From a virus (taxonomy: Duplodnaviria; Heunggongvirae; Uroviricota; Caudoviricetes): 64,000 bases of DNA. Positions 47,827-52,231 of this stretch are shown piece after piece; position 1 is the first letter of the stretch; every line of letters begins with the position of its first letter. The stretch is taken from the IMG/VR virus record IMGVR_UViG_3300021475_000005; one strand, 5' to 3'. The notes under the pieces were generated by a model, which had not been told where the DNA came from, ran no database searches, and worked only from the letters and a program-made list of their open reading frames with translations. A program made the position numbers and the translations under genes.

Positions 47827-47860
47827 AAAAAAGGCCCGGTAGTCGATCTACCGGGCCTTC
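47827..47860 (-). terminator. Terminator after Ro60
   Basis: AAGGCCCGGUAGA...CUACCGGGCCUUUUUU. Confidence 0.85.
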
Positions 47861-47888: not shown

Positions 47889-49214
47889 TTACTCGTTGCC
47901 AGCCTTCTCGACCTCGGCGATCCAGCGGAGAACGTTTTCCGAAAAACCGTCGATATGGTTCCAGCGACCGTAGCCCACGCCATTCTTGTTCGAGGCCACG
48001 TTGATCAAATAGGCATGCTTTGTATCCGGAGCCACTGTCTTGTCATGGGACTGCTCGTCCGTGATGACGATCAAACGGTCATGTTTGATCTTATAGACAG
48101 TCCGAAGAGCTTCGCCGAGATAGGTGCCACCATGCATCTGACTCTTCGAGATCGCCTCGATCCCAGCCATTCCAAGGCGGCGCGGGACTTCAACCACCTC
48201 GTGAGAAAATGTGAAAACTCTCACATCCTCTCCGGGGAAGATAGCGGCAAGCGTCGCCGCTGCGTCCAGCCGGGTAAGGTCCGACTTCTCGGACAACTTG
48301 ACATCCATCGAGCCTGAGACATCGACAAGAAGGATCGTCTTGCCCGGAAGCTTCTCCATTTCCTTCAAGGAGGCGATGAGAGCTTCGTCGATTGCCGGTT
48401 CGAAGGACTTGGCATGCCGGGCAGCCGCCGTGAAGCGGAAGGGAAGAACCTTTTCAGCACCTTTGCGTGCCTTCAAGGCTGCAAGGACGAGATCGCGGTC
48501 AACATTCGCCTCAACCATGTTGCGGAGATTGCGCAACAAAGCGAGATAGCCGAGTTTCCCGGTCGAGAGAAGCCGCTCAAAAGTTTCCTTCTTGCCTTCG
48601 CCTGCACTCAACGCCACTTCCCATGTATCGGGGGCATTGAGCGTGTTGTTGACGAGGCTATCCCACAAAGCCTGCTGCTCCGCATCCTTCGGTTTCGGAT
48701 GCGTCAAGAATAGAACATCCCGAAGACGGATTTCATTCTTTCGGTCGTACTTACCAAGTTGGTAGGCATCGAACTTCGTAAAAGCCATCGCGAGGCCGCG
48801 CTTAAGTTGCGCGGACAGCGGCGCATCTTTGCCGTTGAGCTTCCAATAGAGCGCCAACAGTTCAGAGAGTTCGTCGGCACGCTGAATGACACGTGCGATT
48901 GTCATACTCGTGAGATTATTGCCAGCGCCGGTCTTGCAGAGGGCGACGAGGAGCAGGAGGCTGACATGACGAAGCTTCATATCCTCGCGAGCTTCGATGG
49001 CGATCAAGCCAAGTGTGCCGGGGCTGACCTTCTGGGCAAGATCGTAGATGCGCTTGCTGATCTCGACGCCGTCCTCATAAAATTCATTCTCAAACAGCAT
49101 GCACGACATCACCGAACGGCGAAGCTGTTGCTCCACGGTCGTGCGCGCAGCCGGTGCGCCTTCATGCGTCGTTTCGGTGAAGGAATTCTTGGTCTTGATG
49201 TTTGTACGGGCCAT
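47889..49214 (-). CDS. rsr: Ro60/Rsr orthologue (TROVE + vWA RNA-binding protein)
   Basis: ENEFYEDG, QRADEL, FDAYQLGKY, TWEVALS, ALLRNLRN, LPFRF, vWA DVSGSM, GGT, ITDEQ. Confidence 0.93.
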   Translation of the reverse strand: MARTNIKTKNSFTETTHEGAPAARTTVEQQLRRSVMSCMLFENEFYEDGVEISKRIYDLAQKVSPGTLGLIAIEAREDMKLRHVSLLLLVALCKTGAGNNLTSMTIARVIQRADELSELLALYWKLNGKDAPLSAQLKRGLAMAFTKFDAYQLGKYDRKNEIRLRDVLFLTHPKPKDAEQQALWDSLVNNTLNAPDTWEVALSAGEGKKETFERLLSTGKLGYLALLRNLRNMVEANVDRDLVLAALKARKGAEKVLPFRFTAAARHAKSFEPAIDEALIASLKEMEKLPGKTILLVDVSGSMDVKLSEKSDLTRLDAAATLAAIFPGEDVRVFTFSHEVVEVPRRLGMAGIEAISKSQMHGGTYLGEALRTVYKIKHDRLIVITDEQSHDKTVAPDTKHAYLINVASNKNGVGYGRWNHIDGFSENVLRWIAEVEKAGNE

Positions 49215-49248
49215 GTTTCTCTCGGGTTGGAATACCAAACGCGATGTC

Positions 49249-49290
49249 GCGAATCCTGACATGTGTAGACAGGATTCGCAGGAGTGTCAA
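49249..49290 (-). promoter_or_regulatory. Ro60 promoter with a palindrome over the -10 box
   Basis: TTGACA-17-TACACA; GCGAATCCTG (49249-58) / CAGGATTCGC (49270-79). Confidence 0.75.
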
Positions 49291-49489
49291 TCGTGAGTAG
49301 GCAGCAAAAGCAGTTGATTGAATTCCGGTGCAATAATTACGGGCACACGCAGCAGTCGTGAACAGCGAAATAGCATATACAGACGCCAGATACGAAATGC
49401 CATCACGAAACCTTCTTCTCGCGCTAGACGAAAATATTTCAGCATAAACTTACTTCTTCTCCGTTATGTGTGCATGTCTACGCCCAGGA

Positions 49490-49684
49490 TTAGGAATGAA
49501 GTGGTTTTGCATGATACTCCCAGACTGCAAGCAATTCTTCGAGCGTGATGGTTCGTCCATAGTATGGAATTTCGTGGGGTAATCCCACAGGACGCTTGAT
49601 TGTGAAGCTGCCCCCATCAGGAAGTGTGTAAGCGATATCTTGGAATACATATCCCGCTAAAGCGTATTCTTCATGTTCTGACAT
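49490..49684 (-). CDS. Hypothetical protein
   Basis: MSEHEEYALAG..., the C-terminal part of a track ORF. Confidence 0.45.
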   Translation of the reverse strand: MSEHEEYALAGYVFQDIAYTLPDGGSFTIKRPVGLPHEIPYYGRTITLEELLAVWEYHAKPLHS

Positions 49685-49761
49685 CTGGACAGCTACGTTT
49701 GTCGTTCGGTTGGAGGACGAGATTAATGGTGTGACTGTCATGCACATTGTAGAGGTAACGG

Positions 49762-50109
49762 TCAGGGTCGGCCATAAAGGCGACGCGCCAATCTCAGTTC
49801 TTCTTGCGTCAGCACATAACCGGGTCCGTAGCACCCTAGAAGGCGCTTCCGCCTTTCTTGAAGCCAACCCGCTTTCAGAACTGCTTGTGATTTGGCGGGA
49901 ACACTCGAAGGTATTGGATTAGGTGGTTCAGGCGTCCCTTCCATCGTATTTTCGATAAACGGTAAGTTAGTCATTTCTCGCAAAGCAGCTTCTTGATTCT
50001 CCAATGCTTCTTCAGCGGACAGTAGCCGTCCGTCGATGCGGACATTTGCTGTTTTTCCCCATTTGATGCCGTGCTGATCCAAAATTGCCTGTGCTTCTTC
50101 GCGTGTCAT
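49762..50109 (-). CDS. Hypothetical protein
   Basis: MTREEAQAILDQHG start. Confidence 0.55.
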   Translation of the reverse strand: MTREEAQAILDQHGIKWGKTANVRIDGRLLSAEEALENQEAALREMTNLPFIENTMEGTPEPPNPIPSSVPAKSQAVLKAGWLQERRKRLLGCYGPGYVLTQEELRLARRLYGRP

Positions 50110-50154
50110 TTGATTTTCTTGGCTGCGTGTTTTGAGGGGAGGCTGCAAAAGGAT

Positions 50155-50275
50155 ATTGAGATGGAACAAGCGATAACGAAATTGCCTCACCGTGAGGCGC
50201 TTTTCCCATAAGGAAGATGGCGGGAAAAGTTCGAGTTGAACGAACGATGAATTCGTCGTCTACGCCAATCTCAAT
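50155..50275 (-). ncRNA. YrlA-like Y RNA 5 (permuted tRNA domain, CCA in the acceptor loop)
   Basis: Ends pair; T-arm GUUCG-UUCAACU-CGAAC, acceptor UUUUCCC-GCCA-loop-GGGAAAA, D-arm GCCUC-ACGGU-GAGGC; motif GGCGUA/CGCUUGUUC. Confidence 0.8.
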
Positions 50276-50284
50276 TCTTAGTGC

Positions 50285-50405
50285 TCAACGAAGATAGACG
50301 CGCTCGGGATCGAACCGGGACACCTCTGCTGTTAGCCTTTTAGCAACTCACCGCCCTTGTCGGACTGCTACCCTTTTGGTTGGCTTAGTGGACTATCTTC
50401 GTTGA
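50285..50405 (-). ncRNA. Unclassified T-arm-containing structured RNA
   Basis: 13-bp closing stem UCAACGAAGAUAG/CUAUCUUCGUUGA, GGUUCGAUCCC T-loop; lacks the shared Y motif. Confidence 0.6.
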
Positions 50406-50412
50406 TTGGTAA

Positions 50413-50571
50413 GATGCATTGCAGGATTGAAAAGTACAGGCGCTACCACGTCTTTACAATTAAACCGGCTTGATACCGATTCAAGTGCTGTGGAATTTGA
50501 ATCCACTAGCGCCCGAAGGCACATCATCCGAAGCATGTGATAACTACGCTATTTCAATCCGGCAATGCATC
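50413..50571 (-). ncRNA. YrlA-like Y RNA 4
   Basis: ~20-bp closing stem, T-arm GUGGA-UUCAAAU-UCCAC, closed acceptor-like hairpin, D-like arm; motif AGCGUA/CGCCUGUAC. Confidence 0.7.
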
Positions 50572-50582
50572 CAATTCAGATT

Positions 50583-50728
50583 GATGACTATTCCGAGAAC
50601 AGACGTGAAGACATTTTTAGCGCTCTTCCACTGAGCTACGGTTGCACAGTACAACCGGTTGGATTCGAACCAACGACCTCTCGATTACAAGTCGAAGAAT
50701 TTCTTCACTTCACTACGGACTAGTCATC
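50583..50728 (-). ncRNA. YrlA-like Y RNA 3
   Basis: T-arm GUUGG-UUCGAAU-CCAAC, closed acceptor CGGUUG/CAACCG, D-arm GCUC-AGUGGAA-GAGC in T-acceptor-D order; motif AGUGAA/CGUCUGUUC. Confidence 0.85.
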
Positions 50729-50755
50729 GATCTGAACCGATGATTTTGTTGAGCA

Positions 50756-50883
50756 GGGTGGAACAGGCGACCCGGCGAGCGCCCCAGTATAGACTTATGA
50801 AGTCCGACTAAAGGCATTTGCTTGATATCAGGTTTTTGGCCTGACTTTTGGTAAGCGAAGAACTCCGGTTCTACACCAACCCC
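50756..50883 (-). ncRNA. Y RNA 2 (no tRNA domain)
   Basis: GGGUUGGUGUAGAACCGG...CCGGGUCGCCUGUUCCACCC. Confidence 0.7.
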
Positions 50884-51015
50884 ATTCTCAACAACTTTAA
50901 AAACTATGCAGGCATCGAGTACAATTGCCGCCGTACCCATTGTCGATCCACTTATGGATACCCAATACGCATAACAACAATTTAAGATTTCTCATCTCTA
51001 CAAACCTTATATAAT

Positions 51016-51100
51016 ATCAGGGAACAGGCGCTTACGGGGTAGGCTGCCTACAGCCATGACGGTCATTATCAAGAAGTAACCGTTTGCTTTCACCACTGAT
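51016..51100 (-). ncRNA. Y RNA 1 (short, no tRNA domain)
   Basis: AUCAGUGGUGAAAGCAAACGG...CCGUAAGCGCCUGUUCCCUGAU; TTGACA upstream at 51136-51131. Confidence 0.7.
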
Positions 51101-51147
51101 TGTGACCTTCTCTCATAACCGACTCGTGATGTCAAGGACGAATTTGC

Positions 51148-51540
51148 CTACCAAAACAAAATTTTTGCAGGTTTCTGCTTTTTGTATTTCCGGCGATCCT
51201 CAGCCGTCTTCTTCTTATGACATTTAACGCATAATAGCCGGACATTCGTCGGTTCCCAAAACTCTGGATCGCCATAGGCTATAAAGAGCGGAAGGATGTG
51301 GTCAGCTTCCCAATCGTCAGTCAGATAAAAATGAGTTTTTCCACATTCATGACAGATACCGAAGTCACGGAAGAAAACATACTGCCGCATCCGTTGCGGA
51401 TCGGCACGAAGCAGGTAATGTGTCCTGCAAACGTTGCTACAAAACTTCGCTTTATCCTTTGTTTTGAGTCCACACCAGCGACACATGCCGAGAGGCGCTT
51501 TGTGGAAGCGGCCCGGATAAGCGCGATGCGCGGCCATCAA
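51148..51540 (-). CDS. HNH endonuclease
   Basis: CHECG...WEADHILP...NVRLLCVKCHKKKT. Confidence 0.85.
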   Translation of the reverse strand: MMAAHRAYPGRFHKAPLGMCRWCGLKTKDKAKFCSNVCRTHYLLRADPQRMRQYVFFRDFGICHECGKTHFYLTDDWEADHILPLFIAYGDPEFWEPTNVRLLCVKCHKKKTAEDRRKYKKQKPAKILFW

Positions 51541-51649
51541 TCATCTTCGCCGTCATAACCGTGATATGGAGGTTCTTCCATACTATTTCCGAGGACAAAG
51601 AGAAACCAAGCTGCTGCAATGAAGAGCATCGTTCCGAGCGCTACGAAAA

Positions 51650-52231
51650 TCATGGCGTCACCGGAAGCGCTTCTGCCTGCGTCTTCTCCCGGATCAACGA
51701 CCAACGAATTAGAGAAACCGTTTCAGCCCACGTCTCGGCATATTGGACATGCACGAGAAGATCGCGTTGAAACTTCTCTAATTCATAGGGGCGAACTTGA
51801 AAGCCGTAAAGATACTTAACGGTCTGGAGATGCCTCAGCACGTCGAGCTTGTCGTCGATGAAATGCGTCAGTCCCAGAATTTCTGCAATCGGTGCCTTAT
51901 CGGCACGCTCCAGACAAAAGTAGACATTCTCAGGAAGCACACCGGTCTTTGCATAAAAATTTTGATGTGTCAGCCATTCACGAGATCGTACTTGCGTTTT
52001 CAGGCGTGCTTTTGAGACGATGAAGACGTTCTCGGGCCAAAACATATCGACAAGTTCTGCAATGCTGTCGGTTGCGCGATGTACTTCGGTTGTTTGCAGA
52101 TAATTGTCCGAGAAAAACGACGTATCGGTATTATCATTGGCGCGGTCTATGATAACGCCTCCGATATCGATGCCGAGTTTCAGGTTAGTATCCATAGTCG
52201 TCATAGTCGTCCCAATCATCAGAAAGGTCAC
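51650..52231 (-). CDS. HAD-superfamily hydrolase-like protein
   Basis: GIDIGGVI...VSK...HFIDDK. Confidence 0.7.
   Translation of the reverse strand: MTFLMIGTTMTTMDTNLKLGIDIGGVIIDRANDNTDTSFFSDNYLQTTEVHRATDSIAELVDMFWPENVFIVSKARLKTQVRSREWLTHQNFYAKTGVLPENVYFCLERADKAPIAEILGLTHFIDDKLDVLRHLQTVKYLYGFQVRPYELEKFQRDLLVHVQYAETWAETVSLIRWSLIREKTQAEALPVTP

What the first reader, a model, noticed from the sequence alone, without database searches (positions are those of the whole stretch)
47889..51137. Phage Ro60 with a tandem array of five different Y RNAs
Seen: upstream of the TROVE gene are five end-paired RNAs sharing a bulged-helix motif 5'-U-RGYGWA...CGYYUGUWC-3' and a UUCUUCG-like segment. Three carry a permuted tRNA domain (T-arm, closed acceptor, D-arm) and two carry other distal modules. 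Established: bacterial YrlA RNAs have this architecture, lie next to rsr genes, and Y RNA can tether Rsr to PNPase; some phages encode them. Inference: one Ro protein with five interchangeable RNA adaptors or decoys. This is more than the one or two usually described, and may be linked to tRNA damage control.
Basis: partly seen in the sequence, partly recalled or inferred. Interest (0 to 1): 0.8.

Follow-up and report, generated by a model that had tools for sequence, protein, structure and literature searches.

The report
Phage Ro60 gene with five Y RNAs
An uncultured soil phage related to Caulobacter phage CcrColossus carries a Ro60 RNA-binding protein gene and, about 1 kb upstream, five small RNA genes that share one Ro60-type handle but have different heads; this is a known kind of RNA-protein particle, and such multi-RNA arrays turn out to be normal in this group of phages and in related bacteria.

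Summary
On the Ro60 strand lie five end-paired RNAs: Y1 51100-51016, Y2 50884-50754, Y3 50719-50592, Y4 50560-50424 and Y5 50275-50155. All share a basal helix, a bulged U, an RG/CY pair step and an asymmetric loop (5' YGWA(N)G, 3' CGYYUGUW). A strict descriptor finds exactly these five in the whole 156-kb phage record. Covariance models built only from relatives hit all five (E 3e-25 to 4e-6).

Y3 is a YrlA-type permuted tRNA body. Y4 and Y5 keep a T arm and a closed stem but no canonical D arm. Y1 and Y2 have other heads. A sixth end-paired RNA (50402-50285) lacks the handle.

Five is not exceptional here. Related phages carry 3-8 such units (CcrColossus 7, CcrPW 8), and two alphaproteobacterial Ro60 loci carry 2 and 5. 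The array is separated from Ro60 by three small ORFs.

One metatranscriptome contig bridges the whole array. The same phage record encodes RtcB and a CCA-adding-type enzyme.

I read it as a new member of the known Ro60-Y RNA kind. The adaptor or decoy function remains inference. This scan has already reported handle-RNA arrays beside Ro60-like genes on other DNA.

The parts
47889..49214 (-). Ro60 (Rsr-like) gene, 441 aa as called elsewhere; the open frame runs up to 49262 (457 aa)
   Evidence: Pfam TROVE 9e-16 plus vWA families. PHROG 850 at 3e-58. PDB phiLo Ro60 at E 1.6e-27. 60-68% identical to CcrColossus, Brevundimonas-phage and Asticcacaulis Ro60.
47830..47860 (-). Terminator-like hairpin (13-bp stem, then a T run) just after the Ro60 gene
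   Evidence: Pattern scan. The number of terminator-like sites in the region is not above chance, so only this site's own strength counts.
49287..50109 (-). Three small ORFs (115, 85 and 52 aa) between the RNA array and Ro60; no known family
   Evidence: ORF list; gene calls on identical contigs; no Pfam or PHROG match. Absent from the syntenic relatives L010 and L011, where the array abuts Ro60.
50155..50275 (-). Y5 (121 nt): Ro handle, T-arm-like hairpin GUUCG-UUCAACU-CGAAC, 7-bp closed acceptor with G-CCA encoded in its loop, and a 6-bp hairpin in place of the D arm
   Evidence: Descriptor hit. The unconstrained MFE fold equals the handle model. R1 49.8 bits E 1e-9 and R2 42.6 bits E 1e-8. 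CCA analysis.
50285..50402 (-). Sixth end-paired RNA-like element (about 10-bp closing stem, T-arm-like CCCGG-UUCGAUC-CCGAG next to the 3' strand), without the Ro handle
   Evidence: Fold. No Rfam match even at E 10. No hit from R1 or R2. No relative found by blastn. Covered by the same RNA-library contig as the array.
50424..50560 (-). Y4 (137 nt): Ro handle (AG/CU variant), UUCG-capped hairpin, T arm GUGGA-UUCAAAU-UCCAC, long irregular closed stem, no D arm
   Evidence: Descriptor hit. Fold z-score -4.2. R1 42.1 bits E 7e-8.
50586..50727 (-). Y3 (core 50719-50592; the helix can extend to 50727/50586): YrlA-type RNA. It has the Ro handle, an anticodon-like arm UUCGA-CUUGUAA-UCGAG, AGGUC, a T arm, a 7-bp closed acceptor and a canonical D arm.
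   Evidence: Rfam YrlA 34.8 bits E 5e-5, below the gathering score of 69; Rfam tRNA 30.8 bits. R1 116.9 bits E 3e-25. Fold z-score -3.6. ARAGORN most often calls the permuted body tRNA-Thr(UGU).
50754..50884 (-). Y2 (131 nt): Ro handle with a non-tRNA head of several hairpins
   Evidence: Descriptor hit. R1 34.5 bits E 4e-6 and R2 40.6 bits E 4e-8.
51016..51100 (-). Y1 (85 nt): short type with Ro handle, helix 3, the UUACUUC block and one distal hairpin. It is the first unit of the array, as in relatives.
   Evidence: Descriptor hit. R2 51.4 bits E 7e-11. Aligns with 9 relatives with 95% of cells paired and 15 of 18 pairs compensatory.
51130..51135 (-). TTGACA, a possible -35 box 26-30 nt upstream of Y1 and of the end of the RNA-library contig; weak
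   Evidence: Read from the sequence. No convincing -10 box. The promoter scan is not above chance.

Best explanation
The locus encodes a phage Ro60 ribonucleoprotein system: one Ro60 ring protein and five different Y RNAs, made from a tandem array and probably from a single precursor.

Each RNA closes its 5' and 3' ends into the same handle. The handle is a covarying basal helix, a bulged U, an RG/CY step, and an asymmetric internal loop carrying GGYGWA(N)G on the 5' side and CGYYUGUW on the 3' side. This is the local version of the Ro60-binding bulged helix.

The heads differ. Y3 is a YrlA-type permuted tRNA body. Y4 and Y5 are partial tRNA mimics, and Y5 has an encoded CCA. Y1 and Y2 are not tRNA-like.

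By analogy with D. radiodurans and Salmonella Rsr-Y RNA-PNPase, and with Thermus phage phiLo Ro60-Yrl-PNPase, the handle would dock on Ro60 and gate its cavity. The head would then tether the ring to a partner: host PNPase, or a tRNA-elbow-binding enzyme. That would direct RNA decay or repair during infection.

Shown here: the genes, the shared structure, its conservation, and that an RNA library holds the array as one contig. Inferred: Ro60 binding, processing into discrete RNAs, and the partners.
For: - Specificity: the strict descriptor finds exactly five hits in the 156-kb record, all in the array on the Ro60 strand. The relaxed version gives 0-3 hits per shuffled genome.
- Handle: the bulged U is present in 44 of 44 unique units. 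The RG/CY step is paired in 44 of 44, with AG/CU, GU/AC and GG/UC variants.
- Covariation: in the short type, 95.3% of cells are paired and 15 of 18 pairs have compensatory changes; 0 of 500 shuffles reach this, and slid registers pair at 32-54%. Helix 3 was not used to pick the units and has 7 of 8 pairs compensatory. In the tRNA-like type, 30 of 36 pairs are compensatory, and RNAalifold recovers handle, T arm, acceptor and D arm unaided.
- Cross-validation: models built from relatives only hit Y3 (E 3e-25), Y5 (1e-9), Y4 (7e-8) and Y2 (4e-6) with R1, and Y1 (7e-11) with R2. All are full-length matches.
- Synteny: 61 of 63 R1 hits in 14 other loci lie directly upstream of Ro60 on its strand. 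In the complete CcrColossus, Kikimora and 10KY502B genomes the strong hits cluster there.
- Family: Rfam YrlA matches Y3 at E 5e-5. The motif resembles the published GNCGAAN0-1G (PMC4201824). The protein is a Ro60 homologue.
- Expression hint: one 1048-nt contig of a soil metatranscriptome library covers 50059-51104 and so bridges all six elements.
- Precedent: phiLo Ro60 binds two upstream Y-like RNAs and forms a complex with host PNPase (PMC12135203).
Against: - No binding, processing or function was tested.
- Y3 scores 34.8 bits against a YrlA gathering score of 69, and the other four do not match Rfam at all.
- The handle differs from the published motif (C to Y, AA to WA).
- The array is about 940 bp from Ro60, with three unrelated ORFs between, unlike in relatives.
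- Contigs from an RNA library cannot prove transcription, ends or discrete species, and DNA carry-over is possible.
- No PNPase gene was found in this 59%-complete record, so any PNPase partner would have to be the host's.
- The basal helix was itself a selection criterion of the descriptor, so its covariation is partly circular.
Confidence: 0.72

Rival explanations
1. The tRNA-like heads are the point. On this reading the array is a panel of tRNA decoys or sensors aimed at host tRNA-cleaving defences (anticodon nucleases) or at other tRNA-binding enzymes. Ro60 would mainly stabilise the RNAs, or hand damaged ones to RtcB or PNPase.
For: - Y3 keeps a canonical anticodon-like arm (5-bp stem, loop CUUGUAA) and a 5-nt variable loop exactly 5 nt before the T arm. 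Units in relatives carry Thr-, Asn-, Gln-, Pro-, Ala- and Glu-type loops at the same place.
- The Y3 arm is identical in the distant Xanthomonas phage 10KY502B.
- 7 of 22 units with a closed 7-bp acceptor encode N73-CCA right after it, against a chance rate of 1/64 (binomial P 3e-8). Y5 is one of them.
- The phage record encodes RtcB (E 5e-122), a CCA-adding-type enzyme and 27 tRNAs. In Asticcacaulis, RtcB follows Ro60.
- One chimeric contig in a second metatranscriptome contains a Y3 piece that starts at U34 of the anticodon-like loop and ends 2 nt past the acceptor 3' strand.
Against: - Y1 and Y2 have no tRNA-like head, yet they are conserved units of the array.
- Y4 and Y5 lack both an anticodon-like arm and a D arm.
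- Y3 is not a copy of the phage's own tRNA-Thr(UGU).
- ARAGORN calls on artificially permuted sequences are permissive.
- The fragment evidence is a single contig at depth 3.7.
- No nuclease target is known.
Confidence: 0.15
2. The handles are cis-acting Ro60-binding sites in a long leader or polycistronic mRNA. They would feed back on expression of the downstream ORFs and of Ro60, rather than being genes for discrete RNAs.
For: No intrinsic terminators lie between the units. One RNA-library contig spans the whole array and runs 96 nt past Y5 into the first ORF. The array, the ORFs and Ro60 share one strand, with a strong terminator only after Ro60.
Against: - Bacterial Y RNAs are likewise made as polycistronic precursors and then processed: M. 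smegmatis YrlA/YrlB, and D. radiodurans Yrn2-tRNA-Yrn1 (PMC4201824).
- Each unit is a closed, end-paired domain with its own covarying basal helix.
- In L005 two units lie 3 kb downstream of Ro60, and CcrColossus has weaker hits elsewhere in its genome.
Confidence: 0.08
3. The array is a set of decaying tRNA-gene remnants or chance hairpins without function.
For: The phage is rich in tRNA genes. Model R1 also gives partial hits at junctions of tandem tRNA genes, in line with the published idea that YrlA arose from tRNA dimers (bioRxiv 10.1101/312249).
Against: The handle is conserved and covaries across phages of Caulobacter, Brevundimonas and Xanthomonas and in two bacterial chromosomes, always beside Ro60. 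Only five sites in 156 kb fit the descriptor.
Confidence: 0.02

Closest known systems
Bacterial and phage YrlA/YrlB Y RNAs with Rsr (Ro60): Rfam RF02553; Chen et al. 2014, RNA 20:1715, PMC4201824
   Same: The RNAs are encoded upstream of the Ro60 gene on its strand. Their ends pair into a stem that carries a GNCGAA-like motif. At least one RNA has a T arm, a closed acceptor-like hairpin and a D arm (Y3), and short non-tRNA partners accompany it (Y1, like YrlB). A polycistronic origin is likely. According to PMC12135203, that study already listed a Y-like RNA for the relative CcrColossus.
   Different: There are five handle-bearing units rather than the one or two characterised per species. The handle variant is GGYGWA(N)G, with a conserved 3' strand CGYYUGUUCC and a bulged U. 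Y3 and several relatives keep an anticodon-like arm and a 5-nt variable loop, whereas the solved Salmonella YrlA is said to lack an anticodon loop (10.1101/312249). Some units encode CCA. The Rfam score is below threshold.
Thermus phage phiLo Ro60 with Yrl1 and Yrl2 (NAR 2025, PMC12135203; PDB 9KOP, 9L5Y)
   Same: It is a phage-encoded Ro60 with Y-like RNAs upstream of the gene. The protein is homologous (E 1.6e-27). That paper reports Ro60-RNA binding and a complex with host PNPase, which is the mechanism I transfer here.
   Different: phiLo has two RNAs, identified by a CGAA motif and RNAfold. No tRNA-like head is described there. The host and phage lineage are unrelated.
Deinococcus radiodurans rsr locus (Yrn1, Yrn2 and RNAs a, b, d)
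   Same: Several small RNAs (five) are encoded upstream of rsr. Yrn2, a tRNA and Yrn1 are made as one precursor. T-arm-like elements occur in several of them (PMC4201824).
   Different: Only two of the five are regarded as Y RNAs with the Ro-binding stem. In the window all five carry the handle.
Handle-RNA arrays beside Ro60-like (DUF2828/TROVE-like vWA) genes, reported earlier by this scan in other phages
   Same: These are tandem arrays of 4-9 RNAs with one shared handle and different, partly tRNA-like bodies next to a Ro60-like gene.
   Different: As summarised there, those concern a more distant Ro60-like protein and a different handle. Here the protein matches Pfam TROVE directly and the handle is the classical Y RNA type. 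I did not test those notes.

Membership tests
Ro60 / Rsr (TROVE + vWA ring protein) | TROVE (HEAT-repeat ring) domain | tested here: met
   Pfam PF05731 at E 9e-16, 58.5 bits against a cut-off of 23. The whole-genome search also passes the cut-off.
Ro60 / Rsr (TROVE + vWA ring protein) | C-terminal von Willebrand A domain | tested here: met
   VWA_2 at 4e-7 (31 bits, cut-off 27) and VWA_CoxE at 1e-6. The dedicated vWA_Ro60 model scores only 19.2 bits, below its cut-off of 27.7. MIDAS residues were not inspected.
Ro60 / Rsr (TROVE + vWA ring protein) | Sequence homology to a Ro60 of solved structure | tested here: met
   phiLo Ro60 (9KOP, 9L5Y) at E 1.6e-27 over residues 15-393.
Y RNA (Ro60-bound ncRNA) | 5' and 3' ends pair into a stem with a bulged helix carrying the conserved Ro60-contact motif (GGUCCGA in animals, GNCGAAN0-1G in bacteria) | tested here: met
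   All five units have the basal helix, bulged U, RG/CY step and GGYGWA(N)G. Covariation supports the helices. The motif is a variant of the published one (C to Y, A to W).
Y RNA (Ro60-bound ncRNA) | Physical binding to Ro60, and dependence on Ro60 for stability | not testable with these tools
   Needs pull-down or gel shift.
Y RNA (Ro60-bound ncRNA) | Exists as a discrete small RNA | tested here: inconclusive
   An RNA-library contig covers the whole array. Contigs show neither ends nor that the material was RNA.
YrlA (Rfam RF02553) | Score at or above the Rfam gathering threshold | tested here: not met
   Y3 scores 34.8 bits against 69 (E 5e-5 in 4.5 kb). There is no match for Y1, Y2, Y4 or Y5.
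YrlA (Rfam RF02553) | Within 4 kb of the Ro60 gene and on the same strand (criterion of Chen et al. 2014) | tested here: met
   The array at 51100-50155 lies 0.9-1.9 kb upstream of Ro60 (start 49214), on the same strand.
YrlA (Rfam RF02553) | tRNA-like domain: T arm, closed acceptor-like stem-loop and D arm, in that order | tested here: met
   Met for Y3 only: GUUGG-UUCGAAU-CCAAC, a 7-bp closed stem, and UAGCUCAGUGGAAGAGC. Y5 has the T arm and a 7-bp stem but no D arm. Y4 has the T arm and an irregular stem. Y1 and Y2 have none of these.

The most novel reading that the evidence does not exclude
In this clade the tRNA-like Y RNAs are near-complete permuted tRNAs. They keep an anticodon arm with distinct 'anticodons', a 5-nt variable loop and a 7-bp acceptor, and some encode N73-CCA. 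RNase P-type cleavage in the acceptor loop would give them a free CCA end. The array would then be a panel of specific tRNA impostors held on Ro60. These could bait host anticodon nucleases or other tRNA-targeting defences, or report tRNA damage to RtcB or PNPase. That would make Ro60-Y RNA a phage counter-defence module.
Probability: 0.12. Interest if true: 0.8.

Novelty: new member of a known kind. Interest (0 to 1): 0.45.

Why it matters
What Y RNAs do in bacteria and phages is still poorly understood, and the partner of the tRNA-like head is unknown.

This locus, with the 3-8-unit arrays I found in cultured relatives (CcrColossus and CcrPW on Caulobacter, the Brevundimonas jumbo phages, Xanthomonas phage 10KY502B), shows three things:
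- One Ro60 routinely comes with a whole set of different heads on one handle.
- The handle has a well-defined consensus on both strands.
- Some heads keep an anticodon arm and an encoded CCA.

That offers a genetically tractable system (CcrColossus on C. crescentus) for asking what the heads bind. It also explains several 'tRNA-Gln', 'tRNA-Ser' and 'tRNA-Thr' annotations next to Ro60 genes in GenBank phage records, which are Y RNA heads.

For the window itself the result is mostly confirmation of a known kind of system.

Tried and rejected
- Rfam at gathering thresholds finds no YrlA in the window, only a borderline tRNA hit inside Y3.
- I first read the core as RGYG paired with CGYY. I rejected this because it gives 9 mismatched cells among 44 units, whereas RG paired with the last two bases of the 3' motif gives none. 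RNAalifold chose the same register.
- Single-sequence folds of Y1, Y2 and the sixth element are not better than shuffles (z about -0.7), so thermodynamics alone does not support them.
- ARAGORN on artificially permuted units calls many different tRNAs depending on the cut. Only the commonest call is meaningful, and Y4 and Y5 give essentially nothing.
- The sixth element has no Rfam match at E 10, no R1 or R2 hit, and no blastn relative.
- Promoter and terminator scans are not above chance: 5 found against 3.7 and 4.4 expected.
- A single-protein scan of viral contigs gave only one locus. Relatives came instead from the protein search and contig look-ups.
- The supplementary tables of Chen et al. 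2014 and two reviews (PMC10870794, PMC6542706) are not held. I therefore cannot exclude that multi-unit arrays were tabulated or described there.
- Neither metatranscriptome showed cover over the HNH gene upstream of the array (51166-51700), and other stretches also lack cover.
- No PNPase domain was found in this 59%-complete phage record.
- Y3 is not derived from the phage's own tRNA-Thr(UGU).


Full report
**Context.** The window is part of a 156-kb linear IMG/VR virus record, estimated 59% complete. It carries 27 tRNA genes and phiCbK/Colossus-like structural genes next to the locus. The closest cultured relatives by DNA are the Caulobacter phages CcrColossus and CcrPW and the Brevundimonas jumbo phages (Dolichocephalovirinae); a group of small Xanthomonas phages shares the Ro60 gene.

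**The protein.** ORF 47889-49262 on the minus strand (called as 441 aa from 49214 on identical contigs) matches Pfam TROVE at 9e-16 and vWA families. It matches PHROG 850 'RNA-binding protein' at 3e-58 and the solved Ro60 of Thermus phage phiLo at E 1.6e-27. It is 60-68% identical to thousands of homologues, including CcrColossus gp139 and Ro60 of Asticcacaulis and a Hyphomicrobiaceae MAG. It is a bona fide Ro60/Rsr.

**The observation.**
- The 3' motif CGYYTGTWC occurs six times in 64 kb. Five occurrences lie on the minus strand between 50164 and 51030.
- I wrote a descriptor requiring RGYGWA, 40-200 nt, CGYYTGTNY and a basal helix of at least 4 bp flanking both. It finds exactly five sites in the whole 156-kb record on both strands.
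- The sites are Y1 51100-51016 (85 nt), Y2 50884-50754 (131), Y3 50719-50592 (128), Y4 50560-50424 (137) and Y5 50275-50155 (121).
- In every case one U separates the basal helix from the 5' motif, and six bases separate CGYY from the basal helix.
- A relaxed version (up to two mismatches) gives 0-3 hits per shuffled genome.

**Anatomy of the handle.**
- Across 44 unique units from the window, 13 related phage loci and others, the bulged U is invariant.
- The next two bases (GG) pair with the last two bases of the 3' motif (CC). All four exceptions keep the pair: AG/CU in Y3 and Y4, GU/AC, and GG/UC.
- The alternative pairing RGYG/CGYY shows 9 mismatched cells.
- The handle is therefore: basal helix, bulged U, RG/CY, an asymmetric internal loop (5' YGWA(N), 3' GYYUGUW), a closing G-C, and a third covarying helix.
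- After the third helix comes the nearly invariant U-N-CUUC(G) block.
- The 5' strand GGYGWA(N)G is a close variant of the GNCGAAN0-1G motif that Chen et al. 2014 link to Rsr binding (PMC4201824).

**Covariation.**
- Y1 aligns with nine short units from other phages. RNAalifold predicts just this structure.
- The pair count gives 95.3% of cells paired, 15 of 18 pairs with changes on both sides, 0 of 500 shuffles as good, and 32-54% pairing when the 3' partner is slid.
- The basal helix was a selection criterion, so its signal is partly circular. Helix 3 was not, and 7 of its 8 pairs are compensatory.
- I aligned fifteen tRNA-like units from other phages and two bacteria, with no window sequence. 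RNAalifold recovers the handle, T arm, 7-bp closed acceptor and D arm unaided, with 30 of 36 pairs compensatory.

**Cross-validation.**
- Model R1 was built from those fifteen units. Searched over the window, it gives full-length matches to Y3 (116.9 bits, E 3e-25), Y5 (49.8, 1e-9), Y4 (42.1, 7e-8) and Y2 (34.5, 4e-6). After these come only partial matches at junctions of tandem tRNA genes.
- Model R2 was built from ten short units of relatives. It hits Y1 (51.4 bits, 7e-11), Y5 and Y2, and nothing else.
- In the whole record, full-length R1 matches occur only in the array.
- Rfam's own YrlA model sees only Y3, at 34.8 bits, below its gathering score of 69.

**The heads.**
- Y3 is a YrlA-type permuted tRNA body. 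It has an anticodon-like arm UUCGA-CUUGUAA-UCGAG, then AGGUC, a T arm, a 7-bp closed acceptor and a canonical D arm.
- Y5 has a T-arm-like hairpin and a 7-bp closed acceptor whose loop begins G-CCA. A plain 6-bp hairpin stands where the D arm would be.
- Y4 has a UUCG-capped hairpin, a T arm and a long irregular closed stem.
- Y1 and Y2 have no T arm.
- So 'three with a permuted tRNA domain' is right for the T arm and closed stem, but only Y3 has the D arm.
- By similarity of the heads, Y1 and Y3 have clear counterparts in relatives and Y2 has weak ones. Y4, Y5 and the sixth element have none.

**The sixth element.** An end-paired element at 50402-50285 lies between Y4 and Y5. It has a T-arm-like hairpin next to its 3' strand but no handle. 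It has no Rfam match and no relative among the loci I held.

**Not unique to this phage.** R1 plus the descriptor find the following numbers of units, all on the Ro60 strand:

| Locus | Units |
|---|---|
| CcrColossus | 7 |
| CcrPW | 8 |
| Two uncultured Colossus-like contigs | 8 and 7 |
| Brevundimonas phage Kikimora | 6 |
| Brevundimonas phage Marchewka | 5 |
| Other uncultured phages | 3-5 |
| Xanthomonas phage 10KY502B | 3-4 |
| Asticcacaulis chromosome | 2 |
| Hyphomicrobiaceae MAG | 5 |

- 61 of the 63 R1 hits lie directly upstream of Ro60.
- In three complete phage genomes the strong hits cluster there.
- GenBank annotates some of these heads as tRNA-Gln, tRNA-Ser or tRNA-Thr.
- Five units is thus ordinary for the clade.
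- The window does differ in one respect. Three small ORFs of unknown family (50109-49287) separate the array from Ro60, whereas in relatives the array abuts the gene.

**What is published.**
- Chen et al. 2014 found YrlA-like RNAs in 254 bacteria and 22 phages. They report at least two Y RNAs in each of three species studied, and five small RNAs upstream of D. radiodurans rsr.
- M. smegmatis YrlA is cut by RNase P and receives CCA.
- The phiLo study reports two Y-like RNAs that bind the phage Ro60 and form a complex with host PNPase. It cites the 2014 paper for CcrColossus.
- Full-text searches found no paper describing arrays of five to eight units in phages. The 2014 supplementary tables and two reviews were not available to me.
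- This scan has already reported handle-RNA arrays beside Ro60-like genes in many other phage genomes.

**Expression hints.**
- A soil metatranscriptome library (X2) contains one 1048-nt contig covering 50059-51104. That runs from 4 nt before Y1 to 96 nt past Y5. It is identical to the window and bridges all six elements. Other contigs cover the ORFs and parts of Ro60.
- This fits a single precursor, as in M. smegmatis and D. radiodurans. Contigs prove neither transcription nor ends.
- A second library (X3) holds a 170-nt contig made of three exact pieces joined out of order. The middle piece runs from U34 of Y3's anticodon-like loop (50689) to two bases past the acceptor 3' strand (50649).
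- If the joints arose by ligation or template switching between RNA fragments, these would be real RNA ends at tRNA-typical cleavage sites. It is one contig at depth 3.7, so I treat it only as a lead.

**Surroundings that bear on function.**
- The same phage record encodes RtcB (E 5e-122) and a CCA-adding/poly(A) polymerase family enzyme (E 2e-30), both outside the window.
- In Asticcacaulis, RtcB follows Ro60, as in the Salmonella rsr-yrlBA-rtcBA operon.
- No PNPase gene was found in the phage fragment.

**Features beyond canonical YrlA.**
- Among tRNA-like units with a closed acceptor of 6-7 bp directly after the T arm, 7 of 22 encode N73-CCA right after the acceptor 3' strand. Chance is 1/64, giving binomial P 3e-8. 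Y5 and one bacterial unit are among them.
- Many units carry a 5-bp/7-nt anticodon-like arm followed by a 5-nt variable loop at the tRNA-correct distance from the T arm. Their loops differ (UGU, GUU, UUG, UGG, UGC, CUC).
- Both features fit the published idea that YrlA arose from a tRNA dimer. They also keep open the bolder reading that the heads imitate particular tRNAs.

**Verdict.**
- The sequence features are real, and the RNAs are best read as five Y RNAs of a phage Ro60 particle sharing one handle.
- The mechanism is transferred from the D. radiodurans, Salmonella and phiLo systems and is untested here. In it, the handle docks on Ro60 and the heads tether it to host PNPase or to tRNA-binding repair enzymes.
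- The finding is a new member of a known kind. Its main value is the clade-wide picture and the tractable relatives it points to.

Noticed in passing
window 50285-50402 (-): A sixth end-paired RNA-like element sits inside the array, without the Ro handle. It has a closing stem of about 10 bp and a T-arm-like hairpin (CCCGG-UUCGAUC-CCGAG) next to its 3' strand. It has no Rfam match, no R1 or R2 hit and no relative in the loci I held, but it is covered by the same RNA-library contig as the array.
   Followed up: partly
window 50584-50851 (-), metatranscriptome X3 contig: A 170-nt contig joins three exact pieces out of order: 50627->50584, 50689->50649 and 50851->50767. The middle piece begins at U34 of Y3's anticodon-like loop and ends 2 nt after the acceptor 3' strand. 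This may reflect real RNA fragment ends (cleavage in the anticodon loop and in the acceptor loop). It is a single contig at depth 3.7.
   Followed up: no
window 50155-50275 (Y5) and units in L010, L014, L015, L019: 7 of 22 tRNA-like Y units encode N73-CCA immediately after a closed acceptor 3' strand of 6-7 bp (P 3e-8). This is the layout of a permuted tRNA gene or a tRNA-dimer junction, and RNase P-type cleavage would leave a ready CCA end.
   Followed up: partly
L003, L006, L008, L009 (GenBank JX100810, ON529857, OQ622092, ON529850): The genes annotated tRNA-Gln (CcrColossus), tRNA-Ser (Brevundimonas phages Kikimora and Gurke) and tRNA-Thr (Xanthomonas phage 10KY502B) directly upstream of the Ro60 gene lie inside units of the Y RNA arrays. 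They are probably Y RNA heads rather than tRNAs.
   Followed up: partly
CcrColossus JX100810.1 59335-59471 (+) and 68622-68762 (+): Model R1 gives two further full-length matches (42 and 31 bits) far from the Ro60 locus in the complete CcrColossus genome. These could be extra handle-bearing RNAs elsewhere in the genome.
   Followed up: no
L005 6646-6826 (+): In this uncultured phage two short handle-bearing units lie about 3 kb downstream of the Ro60 gene, in addition to one directly upstream. Units are therefore not always 5' of the gene.
   Followed up: no
window 50885-51015 (-): The only long gap in the array (131 nt, between Y1 and Y2) folds into a long imperfect hairpin (z -2.1). A called 75-aa ORF (50940-50713) that starts here runs through Y2 into Y3 and is probably spurious.
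   Followed up: no
G000:C1:1120-2247 (-) and 48457-48825 (+), outside the window: The same phage record encodes an RtcB RNA ligase (E 5e-122) and a CCA-adding/poly(A) polymerase family enzyme (E 2e-30). Together with Ro60, the Y RNAs and 27 tRNAs, this makes up an RNA repair and maintenance toolkit.
   Followed up: partly
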